DNA from: Paramecium tetraurelia
Lineage: Eukaryota
Reading direction: 5' to 3'
DNA length: 64,000 nucleotides
NCBI GenBank assembly: GCA_000165425.1
Contig: CT868152.1
Location: 372,001-436,000, forward strand
Shown here: piece after piece, positions 3,084 through 5,666 of the stretch
Position numbering within the stretch: the stretch's first letter is position 1
Layout: each line of letters opens with the position of its first letter
Notes under the pieces: model-generated
The model's database searches: none
What the model saw: the letters and a program-made list of their open reading frames with translations, nothing else
Told to the model about the DNA's origin: nothing
Made by a program: the position numbers and the translations under genes

Positions 3084-4023
3084 ATGGATTTCACAGGACA
3101 ATTCAGACTCGACGAAGACTCGATGGCTATAAATATCTTCCAAACACCTATTAAAGGGTTAATATAAGGTATTTTTAAACTTTTCATCTCCATTCCCTAT
3201 AATATATTACCTGTTTATGGCGGAATATTTTCGCGCTTATACTACAATTTTGTGACAAAAAAATATATTTTTAGATTCAGAGGCTAATTGCAATTCATAA
3301 GCAAACACAAATCAGAAATTATTTGTTTAGACTGAACCTTTCGATAAACCAAAGATTTAATCAGATCTATTCAAAACTTAGAAAAAGTGGAGTCTAAAAT
3401 ATATCAGCAATCGAGTAATGAAGGAATTATCTCATGAAGCTATTGCTTATAGTGATATTTGCTAATAATTGACTGATGAAATGATTTAAGAATTAGATGG
3501 AAAATAAAATGATAGACAGAAAGAAATCAAAAATCTTAGAAGAAGAGTTTATGATGCTTTGAATGTCATGATTTCTATTGGAATAGTAGTCAAAGAGAAT
3601 AAAATGATGAAAAAGAATTCTGAAGCCTAAGTGAATCTAACAAAGTAGAATTTAATAATACGAAAAGTAAGAATTAAATTTAATTTTAACAGCAAAAATT
3701 AAAAGAATAATTATAAATAAAAAAAGCATCAGCAACAACATAAATTTAACAGCAAGACACTCTTAAAAAATTAGTAGAATTGAACAAAATGAGGGATGTA
3801 GATGAAAGTGAGAAGATCAGATTTCCATTCATTCTTGTCAAAACCTAATTAAATAATGTTGATGAAGTAATTAATTTCCATATCATTAAAATAGGATGAA
3901 TTAGTCTTAGAGTAAAACAAATAGATGGACTATTTGAAAGTATTTAGTAAAAATCAACTTGATCTCCAGCTAGATCTAACTGTAGTACAAAAACTATTTT
4001 AAAGCGAACACATGATTTTGTGA
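3084..4023 (+). CDS. E2F/DP-family transcription factor (DP-like)
   Basis: Winged-helix motif KNLRRRVYDALNVMISIGIVVKE, then a coiled coil and IRFPFILV. Introns at 3169-3274 (106 nt), ~3667-3692 and ~3867-3894. Confidence 0.92.
3169..3274 (+). other. Unusually long (106 nt) first intron of the DP-like gene
   Basis: GTA...TTAG boundaries. Removing it joins exon 1 in frame to the RRRVYDALNV domain; reading through hits TGA at 3333-3335. The short alternative 3252-3274 (23 nt) gives the wrong frame. Confidence 0.7.
3228..3236 (+). promoter_or_regulatory. Candidate E2F/DP binding site TTTTCGCGC inside the long intron
   Basis: Exact match to the TTTSSCGC consensus in CpG-poor DNA. A second imperfect inverted site (TGGCGGAA, 3218-3225) lies next to it. 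Confidence 0.5.
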
Positions 4024-4686: not shown

Positions 4687-5494
4687 ATGACTTCCATATA
4701 ATAAAATTCTCAAGTAGAGGGACCTTAGGAATAAATGAAGAATAATACTCCAACATCACCAATAGACTCCGATTCCTCCGATTCTTCGTATGATTTCGTG
4801 AAGGATGTGAATTAAAAGTCCTATCTGAAAAGAACTATTGAAGAAGATTAGGAACTTCTCTCAAAATATAAAGGTAAAACTCATATATAAAATGAAATAG
4901 GCAAGCACGGGCTAAAGTATTAAAAAATATCAAATGAGTAACGATAACAACTAATCAAATAGGTAACAACTACAGGCTGTATGATAAAACATGCTGCCCG
5001 AGATTTGAATATTAATTTCTCGACTGCTAAGGCTATCATGCAAATTTTTAGAAGGGAAGGTAGAATGTCCAAAAAAAGGAAAAGGTGTACTGCTTAGTCA
5101 GAATTTAAAAACCCCGAGATATTAATTTAAGATGTTAAGGAAGGTCTAAAAAGTCAATTTGGATTGATGAAAGAGGAATAATGCTAGTAGAGACTAAATA
5201 ATGTGCAGGACAATTTGGATACAATTCATTTTCAATAAATGGAGGAGAAAAATAGAAATTAAGCTATTTTTATATAATAATTAAAAACATAGGTTAGAAA
5301 CTTAAATAAATTTTAGAATTTCTATTTATAAGGGAGAGCAAATTAATTATAACAGGAGATATAATAATTGAATTAAAATTATTCTTATTTGCAAATTCAG
5401 TATAATCAATAGCAATAAATGGTATAAAAAGTCCACTAATTTATATTAGGTCAGATATGCAATGCCCCAATATTAACAGTAGTTTCAATTTTGA
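4687..5494 (+). CDS. Helix-turn-helix (homeodomain-like) putative transcription factor
   Basis: YQKISNEQRQQLIKQVTTTGCMIKHAARDLNINFSTAKAIMQIFRREGRMSKKRKR is an HTH plus basic NLS, followed by a Q-rich tail. The 3' end depends on a predicted intron at ~5422-5449. Confidence 0.75.
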
Positions 5495-5666
5495 TTATAT
5501 TCAATATTGCAATAAGACAGTTATTTAATTTGGCATTAAAGATAATAATTATATCTGGTCCTTTTTTTTTTTGAAATTTTACACTTTAATATTCCAATAA
5601 TTATAATGATACTAATTAATAAAATAATTTCTGTAATGTTTCTGTTTATTAAATTAATAAAAAAAA

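What the first reader, a model, noticed from the sequence alone, without database searches (positions are those of the whole stretch)
3169..3335. DP-like gene has an oversized intron containing an E2F site: candidate autoregulatory loop
Seen: every other intron I placed in the window is about 21-30 nt, but intron 1 of the DP-like gene is 106 nt. It contains TTTTCGCGC (3228-3236), an exact TTTSSCGC match, beside an imperfect inverted site TGGCGGAA (3218-3225). CpG-rich words are rare here, and by eye I saw no other TTTCGCGC. Retention reads through the intron and stops at TGA 3333-3335, before the DNA-binding domain. The intron also holds a 12-codon mini-ORF (3217-3255). Known: E2F/DP heterodimers bind TTTSSCGC, Paramecium promoters are very short, and PTC-containing transcripts are NMD targets. 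Inference: the intron was enlarged to house a cis-element through which E2F/DP regulates its own partner gene, possibly coupled to intron retention and NMD.
Basis: partly seen in the sequence, partly recalled or inferred. Interest (0 to 1): 0.78.

Follow-up and report, generated by a model that had tools for sequence, protein, structure and literature searches.

The report
Conserved E2F site in DP-gene intron
A Paramecium gene for the DP partner of the cell-cycle factor E2F has a first intron about four times the usual length, and that intron carries an E2F-type DNA site that old gene duplicates appear to have kept, so E2F/DP may control the DP genes themselves.

Summary
The window is Paramecium tetraurelia macronuclear DNA and the gene is GSPATT00009745001, a DP-type E2F partner.

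- **Intron:** 3169-3274 is 106 nt, GTA...TAG, with no internal AG.
- **E2F site:** TTTCGCGC at 3229-3236 is the only TTTSSCGC in 64 kb.
- **Retention:** it would stop at TGA 3333-3335.

The public protein model does not use this intron. It reads 3169-3251 as coding and splices out 31 nt instead. Models in four sister species disagree with each other in frame. Only the 106-nt intron joins the conserved exon 1 peptide to the conserved exon 2 frame.

I back-translated the models that read through the intron. All 9 of 9 that cover the site are compatible with TTTSGCGC at the homologous place. This holds in two paralog clades that are only 56-64% identical in protein. Inferred intron lengths are 106, 109 and 110 nt, and the site lies 37-38 nt from the 3' splice site. 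It heads a 32-nt conserved block.

No snoRNA features and no unusual RNA fold were found. The mini-ORF and the "inverted site" are not deeply conserved.

I got no RNA-seq evidence. Splicing, retention/NMD coupling and protein binding all remain untested.

Verdict: a real, conserved, probably E2F/DP-bound intronic element. Autoregulation is plausible but inferred.

The parts
3084..3168 (+). Exon 1 of the DP gene (28 codons plus the first base of codon 29)
   Evidence: The peptide MDFTGQFRLDEDS..FQTP.KG.. is kept in both paralog clades.
3169..3274 (+). Intron 1, 106 nt, GTA...TAG, 26% GC
   Evidence: the only AG is terminal. It is the only splice choice that joins the conserved exon 1 to the conserved exon 2 frame. 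Not in the public model. No RNA evidence obtained.
3229..3236 (.). E2F-type site TTTCGCGC (TTTSGCGC)
   Evidence: the only match in the window. The homologous position is compatible in 9 of 9 read-through models.
3229..3260 (.). 32-nt conserved non-coding block headed by the E2F-type site
   Evidence: Letters fixed by clade-B codons match the window at 16/19, 16/19, 18/23, 18/23 and 17/21. In the 60 nt upstream the match is 43-45% (best of 13 shifts).
3218..3225 (.).
   Evidence: Present. Kept in clade A2 models (LWRN) but not in clade B. At least 2 mismatches from TTTSSCGC.
3217..3255 (+). 12-codon mini-ORF, not conserved
   Evidence: In clade B the same frame has no start codon and reads W where the window has its stop.
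3333..3335 (+). First in-frame TGA if intron 1 is retained
3275..3666 (+). [quoted passage not shown]
   Evidence: PF02319, 45.4 bits against a cut-off of 25.7. DP-2 chain 1cf7_B, E 4.9e-8.
3667..3692 (+). Intron 2, 26 nt, 15% GC
   Evidence: The junction fits P0004.
3693..3866 (+). Exon 3, weak DP dimerisation-domain match
   Evidence: PF08781, 20.9 bits, below the cut-off of 24.7.
3867..3894 (+). Intron 3, 28 nt, 18% GC
   Evidence: The junction fits P0004.
3895..4023 (+). Exon 4 with stop TGA at 4021-4023

Best explanation
The 106-nt first intron of this Paramecium DP gene is a real, anciently conserved long intron. It carries a DNA element recognised by E2F/DP-type factors. The element is TTTSGCGC at a fixed 37-38 nt from the 3' splice site, inside a 32-nt conserved block. 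Through it the E2F/DP network would feed back on, or cross-regulate, transcription of this DP gene family.

Shown:
- the sequence features;
- the DP identity of the gene;
- conservation of intron position;
- compatibility of every readable paralog or ortholog model with the site, and conservation of the block.

Inferred:
- the paralogs' intron lengths (106/109/110 nt) and the spacing of the site, which come from back-translation;
- that the intron is spliced as drawn;
- that E2F/DP binds the site;
- the direction of the regulation;
- that the payload is the reason the intron stays long.
For: 1. DP identity. PF02319 scores 45.4 bits. The only solved-structure hit at E <= 0.01 is DP-2, chain 1cf7_B, with RRRVYDALNV aligned.

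2. Gene model.
- In the exon 2 frame there is a TGA at 3253-3255 and no ATG before 3418.
- GT occurs in the intron only at 3169, 3213 and 3252, and AG only at 3273. Only 3169-3274 keeps the frame.
- All six models that read on in exon 1's frame (P0004, P0005, P0009-P0012) have G after exon 1, which fits G|GT.
- Orthologous models shift frame inside the stretch, as non-coding DNA would.

3. Conservation.
- 9 of 9 models that read across the site are compatible with TTTSSCGC at the homologous place. The codons are FSR, IFAL, ILAL, FWR and FGA.
- 2 models splice the site out and 5 start downstream of it (16 proteins examined).
- The only other plus-strand compatible places in the 16 proteins are LWR (2 models) and FSR at residue 107 of P0019.
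- Clades A and B share 56-64% protein identity. Yet the block's fixed letters match at 16/19 to 18/23, against 43-45% upstream.
- Inferred intron lengths are 106, 109 and 110 nt, with site-to-3'-end distances of 38, 37 and 37 nt.

4. Rarity of the word.

5. Context from papers.
- TFDP knockdown in P. tetraurelia lowers Orc1, Mcm4/5 and cyclin E homologues (PMC13198610, section 21 read).
- TTTSSCGC is used in silico for Tetrahymena promoters, and an E2F/DP-CHR-like motif was found by ChIP (PMC8216455, passages).

6. One independent anecdote. Metagenome locus L021 has an intronless DP gene with a palindromic E2F site at 334-345, about 115 nt before the ORF start at 458.
Against: - No RNA evidence for the 3168/3275 junction.
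- No DNA of the paralogs was seen. Clade-B letters are inferred from codons of public models, so 2-5 of the 8 motif letters per model are only 'compatible', not read.
- The models are related, so the 9 are not 9 independent events. They represent about four sub-lineages in two deep clades.
- P0009's model structure around the site could not be reconciled with a simple read-through.
- Conservation extends 24 nt beyond the 8-mer, which an E2F site alone does not explain. By eye I saw no CHR-like TTYGAA at the usual spacing.
- The site lies about 145 nt downstream of the ATG, whereas Paramecium 5' UTRs average about 22 nt (PMC5485702). That is an unusual place for a promoter element.
- Across 80 metagenomic DP loci, TTTSSCGC in the 1 kb upstream of the DNA-binding exon was not enriched: 7 sites against 5.7 expected.
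- The binding specificity of Paramecium E2F/DP has not been measured in anything I read.
Confidence: 0.55

Rival explanations
1. The conserved block acts in the RNA. It would be a splicing enhancer or silencer, or a structure, needed for or regulating removal of an intron four times the normal length. The E2F match would then be coincidental.
For: The block sits at a fixed 37-38 nt from the 3' splice site and extends well beyond 8 nt. Longer and GC-richer Paramecium introns are retained more often (bioRxiv 2024.08.09.607295; PMC8997360). Retention gives a premature stop.
Against: The fold is no better than shuffles: z = -0.92, and 35 of 200 shuffles fold as well. The one candidate stem shows no compensatory change between clades (my reading). 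An exact match to the gene product's own DNA motif by accident is improbable.
Confidence: 0.13
2. The block is the core of an internal promoter. Transcripts starting in or near the intron's 3' end would use the next ATG (3418) and make an N-terminally truncated DP that lacks the first helix of the DNA-binding domain.
For: There is no ATG in any frame from 3217 to 3418. 4 of the 16 public models in sister species start exactly at that methionine (183 aa: P0013-P0016), and a fifth truncated model (P0017, 158 aa) starts further downstream.
Against: ATG-free gaps of 200 nt or more are 31 of 1163 in the window, so this one is unremarkable. Alternative start sites are reported as extremely rare in Paramecium (PMC5485702). 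The truncated models are equally explained by a failure to call a long intron. Exon 1 is conserved as a peptide.
Confidence: 0.12
3. The intron hosts a small non-coding RNA, as the known ~80-nt Paramecium introns host snoRNAs.
For: Long Paramecium introns described so far contain snoRNAs (PMC5485702). ACA triplets are present.
Against: No Rfam match was better than E = 3.9, all far below the gathering scores. There is no C box within 1 mismatch and no CTGA on the sense strand. The fold is not unusual. Only 32 nt are conserved, and the 5' half is not.
Confidence: 0.05
4. The stretch is coding as in the public model (exon to 3251, 31-nt intron 3252-3282), and the motif is just codons.
For: The P0004 model exists. 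With TGA as the only stop, the frame is open.
Against: That model needs GTGAC..GAG splice sites and skips an internal TAG. The 'coding' peptide is not kept. Orthologues and the ohnolog read the same DNA in other frames, while DNA-level conservation persists.
Confidence: 0.05
5. The conservation is not functional. It would be an artefact of inference from degenerate codons, or of local gene conversion.
For: No paralog DNA was read. Compatibility tests are permissive: 7 minus-strand 'compatible' places occur in clade-B coding sequence.
Against: Letters fixed by codons match at 78-84% in the block against 43-45% upstream. The clade-specific C/G difference is the same across species. The flanking exons are only 56-64% identical, which argues against conversion.
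Confidence: 0.05

Closest known systems
E2F sites in the promoters of mammalian E2F-family genes (E2F1 autoregulation; recalled, no paper read here)
   Same: A gene of the E2F/DP family carries the family's own consensus site close to its 5' end, giving a feedback loop.
   Different: Here the gene encodes the DP partner. The site is inside an intron about 145 nt past the ATG, and no binding or expression data exist.
Ciliate E2F motifs: TTTSSCGC scanned in Tetrahymena promoters, and the E2F/DP-CHR-like motif of Anqa1 ChIP peaks (PMC8216455, passages; it cites Zhang 2017 for 714 genes)
   Same: Same consensus, same phylum, and a composite element larger than the 8-mer.
   Different: Those sites are promoter-proximal (within 1 kb of start sites). 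No CHR-like TTYGAA was seen here, and no intronic case is described in the passages read.
snoRNA-hosting long introns of Paramecium (~80 nt; PMC5485702, passage)
   Same: A rare outlier intron in a genome of 25-nt introns, apparently kept long because of a payload.
   Different: No box C/D or H/ACA features and no Rfam match. The payload looks like a DNA site.
Metagenome locus L021: intronless DP gene with a palindromic E2F site upstream
   Same: A DP gene of another AT-rich (35% GC) microbial eukaryote with an exact E2F site in its 5' region.
   Different: The site is upstream of the ORF, not intronic. The organism is unknown and this is a single case.

Membership tests
DP (TFDP) subfamily of E2F/DP winged-helix factors | E2F_TDP DNA-binding domain (PF02319) | tested here: met
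   45.4 bits, cut-off 25.7, E 6.6e-12 for exon 2.
DP (TFDP) subfamily of E2F/DP winged-helix factors | Closer to DP than to E2F; RRxYD DNA-contact motif | tested here: met
   the only hit at E <= 0.01 is DP-2 (1cf7_B), with RRRVYDALNV aligned. The contact role of the motif is recalled, not tested.
DP (TFDP) subfamily of E2F/DP winged-helix factors | DP dimerisation domain (PF08781) | tested here: inconclusive
   exon 3 alone scores 20.9 bits, below the 24.7 cut-off (E 3.4e-4); not listed at E <= 0.01 for P0004, P0013 or P0011.
DP (TFDP) subfamily of E2F/DP winged-helix factors | Heterodimerises with an E2F and binds DNA | not testable with these tools
PMC13198610 lists 16 TFDP homologues but gives no binding data in the sections read.
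E2F/DP binding site | Matches TTTSSCGC (narrower form TTTSGCGC) | tested here: met
   exact match at 3229-3236.
E2F/DP binding site | Conserved in orthologous and paralogous genes | tested here: met
   Indirect, from codons of public models: 9 of 9 that cover the site are compatible, and the block matches at 16/19 to 18/23 fixed letters.
E2F/DP binding site | Promoter-proximal position | tested here: inconclusive
   The site is 145 nt downstream of the ATG, inside an intron. The start site is not known for this gene.
E2F/DP binding site | Bound by E2F/DP; motif enriched at canonical targets in this genome | not testable with these tools
   No genome is held and no ChIP data were found.
Paramecium spliceosomal intron | GT..AG ends (GTA..TAG) and removal restores the conserved frame | tested here: met
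Paramecium spliceosomal intron | Length 20-30 nt (about 98% of introns) | tested here: not met
   106 nt here. Clade-B paralogs are inferred at 109-110 nt. The norm is from PMC5485702.
Paramecium spliceosomal intron | Spliced junction seen in RNA | not tested
snoRNA-hosting long intron | Box C/D or H/ACA features, or a family match | tested here: not met
NMD-visible intron (premature stop on retention) | Retention gives an in-frame TGA | tested here: met
   TGA at 3333-3335. The length is 3n+1.
NMD-visible intron (premature stop on retention) | Measured retention that rises on NMD knock-down | not tested
   No reads were laid.

The most novel reading that the evidence does not exclude
In a genome that has shrunk its introns to about 25 nt, one DP gene family has kept a 106-110-nt 'regulatory intron' since before an old whole-genome duplication. 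It holds a composite 32-nt element: an E2F site plus a partner site. Occupancy of the element by E2F/DP (or a DREAM-like complex) inside the transcribed region would set DP output. It would do so both by transcription and by shifting the balance between splicing and retention. Retained transcripts stop at 3333-3335 and would go to NMD. That would be a transcription-factor dose sensor coupled to splicing.
Probability: 0.1. Interest if true: 0.85.

Novelty: new variant of a known kind. Interest (0 to 1): 0.6.

Why it matters
- **A recognisable cis-element in Paramecium.** In the papers I read, the only cis-regulatory DNA discussed for ciliates was in-silico or ChIP-derived promoter motifs. This would be a deeply conserved non-coding element with a recognisable factor, and it can be tested directly by microinjected transgenes and RNAi.
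- **Misannotation of a gene family.** A whole family of DP genes appears to be wrongly modelled in five species. The 2017 annotation and mapping settings capped introns at 100 nt (PMC5485702, Methods passage), just under the 106-110 nt found here. Whether that cap caused the NCBI models is my inference. Other long, payload-carrying introns may be hidden in the same way.
- **Evolution of feedback.** It would extend E2F-family feedback, known from animals, to ciliates and to the DP subunit.

Tried and rejected
- **RNA evidence.** There is no splicing, start-site or retention evidence.
- **Genome.** No whole genome is held, so no genome-wide motif counts were possible.
- **Relatives' DNA.** The metagenome search gave 80 DP loci, with 29-67% identity on the best segment and no close Paramecium relative. 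No orthologous intron DNA was obtained.
- **General enrichment.** TTTSSCGC upstream of DP loci was not enriched: 7 sites against 5.7 expected over 80 loci, and 2 against 2.14 for the 45 loci with GC <= 0.45.
- **RNA family and fold.** Rfam found nothing. The fold had z = -0.92.
- **snoRNA boxes.** Absent.
- **CHR element.** I saw no CHR element 4 nt after the site, by eye only.
- **Mini-ORF and TGGCGGAA.** Rejected as deep features.
- **ATG-free stretch.** Unremarkable.
- **Earlier scan notes.** Nothing relevant.
- **Supplement of PMC13198610.** It could not be read. It may hold gene IDs and expression values for this gene.
- **Literature searches.** 'Paramecium + E2F' gave 79 papers and 'Paramecium + E2F + intron' gave 21. 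Neither listing showed a title on an intronic E2F site. One search was badly framed and says nothing.

Full report
**What the window is.** The sequence is 27% GC and reads open only with TAA/TAG as glutamine. Exon 2 of the gene is 100% identical to a Paramecium tetraurelia macronuclear protein (P0004), listed as GSPATT00009745001.

**The gene.**
- Exon 2 carries the E2F/DP winged-helix domain: PF02319, 45.4 bits against a cut-off of 25.7.
- Its only solved-structure relative at E <= 0.01 is human DP-2, chain 1cf7_B (E 4.9e-8), with RRRVYDALNV aligned.
- The DP dimerisation domain is only weakly matched: 20.9 bits against 24.7 for exon 3, and not listed for full-length models.
- A 2026 paper counts 16 TFDP homologues in this species, six of them with both domains. 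It shows that knocking down two others lowers Orc1, Mcm4/5 and cyclin E homologues. It contains no motif or intron analysis in what I read (PMC13198610: abstract, sections 16, 21 and 24, term searches). Its supplement could not be read.

**Checking the observation.** Every coordinate holds.
- ATG at 3084; exon 1 runs to 3168.
- 3169-3274 is 106 nt, GTATTT...TTTTAG.
- TTTTCGCGC lies at 3228-3236 and TGGCGGAA at 3218-3225.
- The mini-ORF is 3217-3255.
- The first in-frame TGA on retention is 3333-3335.
- The gene's other introns are 26 and 28 nt, at 15% and 18% GC. Intron 1 is 26% GC.
- TTTSSCGC occurs once in 64 kb, with 0.62 expected; 47 of 100 shuffles have at least one. The count alone is not significant. 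The placement is, at roughly 0.001 for this 106-nt stretch by my arithmetic, computed post hoc.
- CGCG occurs at 3 places and GCGC at 6.

**The gene model.** The public model does not contain this intron.
- P0004 (284 aa) reads 3169-3251 as protein and removes 3252-3282. The lengths fit exactly: 168 + 384 + 174 + 126 nt.
- Models from four sister species treat the stretch in incompatible ways:
  - some read through in frame 0;
  - some read in frame +1;
  - some switch frame;
  - some splice out about 70 nt;
  - five begin downstream, four at the methionine at 3418 (183 aa) and one further on (P0017, 158 aa).
- Clade-B models even read the start of exon 2 in the wrong frame. Their ILKTPAILKQILIRNCF is the shifted reading of a peptide that other paralogs show as ..E(D/G)PCDSQ.NTN.KL..
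- What is conserved is the exon 1 peptide, a G after it in all six models that read on in exon 1's frame (fitting G|GT), and exon 2 from D.E..C.SQ.NTN onward.
- In the window the exon 2 frame is closed by TGA at 3253-3255 and has no ATG before 3418.
- GT occurs in the stretch only at 3169, 3213 and 3252, and AG only at 3273. Only 3169-3274 joins the two conserved parts. That gives a 259-aa protein (777 nt, my arithmetic).
- I put about 0.9 on this intron being real, but I have no RNA evidence.
- The 2017 Paramecium pipeline ran its intron caller and its mapper with a maximum intron length of 100 nt (PMC5485702, Methods passages). An intron of 106-110 nt could not be called by it. Whether that explains the NCBI models is my inference.

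**Is the site conserved?** I could not obtain paralog DNA: no genome is held and there were no close relatives among the metagenome contigs. But the faulty public models translate the homologous introns, so their residues constrain the DNA.
- Of 16 proteins, 9 read across the homologous position. All 9 are compatible with TTTSSCGC there. The codons are FSR in the window's own model, IFAL in the ohnolog and its orthologue, ILAL, FWR (two models) and FGA (three models). Two models splice the place out and five start downstream.
- Elsewhere on the plus strand, the 16 proteins give only LWR (two models, also in the intron) and one FSR.
- On the minus strand, seven compatible places fall at one homologous coding position in clade B. 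This shows that compatibility alone is a permissive test.
- In clade B, 5-6 of the 8 letters are fixed by the codons. The first S is G where the window has C. If the two clade-B frames are assumed to describe the same letters, together they leave only the TTTGGCGC form (my reasoning).
- The tree has two clades, A (9 rows, including the window) and B (7 rows). Each has 100% support, and protein identity between them is 56-64%.
- Over the 32 nt from the site onward (3229-3260), letters fixed by clade-B codons match the window at 16/19, 16/19, 18/23, 18/23 and 17/21. In the 60 nt upstream the best of 13 shifts gives 43-45%.
- Clade-A2 and P0009 rows score lower in the block (12/16, 12/16, 11/17), because their models leave it after about 25 nt.
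- Inferred intron lengths are 106 (window), 109 (two models) and 110 nt (three models). The site ends 38, 37 and 37 nt before the 3' end.
- P0009's structure I could not reconcile with a simple read-through.
- The TGGCGGAA word and the mini-ORF are kept only within clade A. TGGCGGAA is at least two mismatches from the consensus.

**What it is not.**
- No Rfam family comes near threshold. The best E-value is 3.9, and the one match overlapping the intron has E = 9.1.
- There is no C box within one mismatch and no CTGA on the sense strand.
- The RNA fold is ordinary: z = -0.92, with 35 of 200 shuffles as good.
- The known long introns of Paramecium, about 80 nt, host snoRNAs (PMC5485702). This one does not look like them.
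- A retained IES is unlikely, because the stretch is present in the annotated (presumably macronuclear) genes of five species; IES end features were not tested.

**Most likely mechanism (0.55).** I think this is a DNA element bound by E2F/DP-type factors, kept inside a long first intron, through which the network regulates this DP gene family.
- For this reading:
  - The word is the exact consensus of the gene's own product family.
  - It is rare in this genome.
  - Its position and spacing are kept across an old duplication.
  - The DNA-contact motif is retained in the protein.
- Against it, or open:
  - The block is larger than an E2F site. I saw no CHR-like word at the usual spacing, by eye.
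  - The site lies about 145 nt past the ATG, in a species with 22-nt 5' UTRs.
  - Binding specificity is unmeasured.
  - 80 unrelated DP loci show no general upstream enrichment (7 sites against 5.7 expected). One AT-rich locus, L021, does have a palindromic site about 115 nt before an intronless DP ORF.
- Rivals are an RNA-level splicing element (0.13), an internal promoter for a truncated DP (0.12), a hosted small RNA (0.05), coding as annotated (0.05), and no function (0.05).
The intron is 3n+1, a premature stop follows, and it is GC-richer than its neighbours. Longer and GC-richer introns are retained more often in Paramecium. It is untested here.

**Novelty.** Feedback through E2F sites in E2F-family genes is known (recalled). 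A conserved intronic E2F-type site in a ciliate DP gene, in an intron four times the norm, was not described in the papers I read, nor suggested by the titles listed in my searches (listings, plus the passages named above). I rate it a new variant of a known kind, with interest 0.6.

Noticed in passing
window 3084-4023 and proteins P0004-P0019: Public protein models of this DP family in five Paramecium species disagree at the N-terminus. Some read through in different frames, some have odd short introns, and five truncated models begin downstream of the intron (four at an internal methionine). All are consistent with a missed 106-110-nt intron. The 2017 pipeline capped introns at 100 nt.
   Followed up: partly
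window 3217-3418: There is no ATG in any frame for 201 nt. The next ATG is the in-frame methionine used as the start in four sister-species models (183 aa). Gaps of 200 nt or more are 31 of 1163 in the window, so this is not remarkable on its own.
   Followed up: yes
L021 334-345 and ORF 458-1516: A metagenome contig (35% GC, standard code) has an intronless DP-like gene preceded by a palindromic double E2F site (TTTCGCGC read on both strands) about 115 nt before the ORF start.
   Followed up: partly
L055 1075-1086 and 1526-1537: Two further palindromic double E2F sites lie 1.0-1.45 kb upstream of another DP-like match (at 2531) on a 113-kb metagenome contig.
   Followed up: no
window 4737-5574 (+): The next gene downstream encodes a basic protein with a stretch (..AARDLNINFSTAKAIMQIFRREGR..) that looks to me like a helix-turn-helix DNA-binding motif. 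It was not scanned against any library.
   Followed up: no
clade-B proteins, residues around 212-221 (ERE[IT], ERQI): One coding position in clade-B DP genes is codon-compatible with a minus-strand E2F site. This would need rare CGS arginine codons, so it is probably a false positive of the compatibility test.
   Followed up: no
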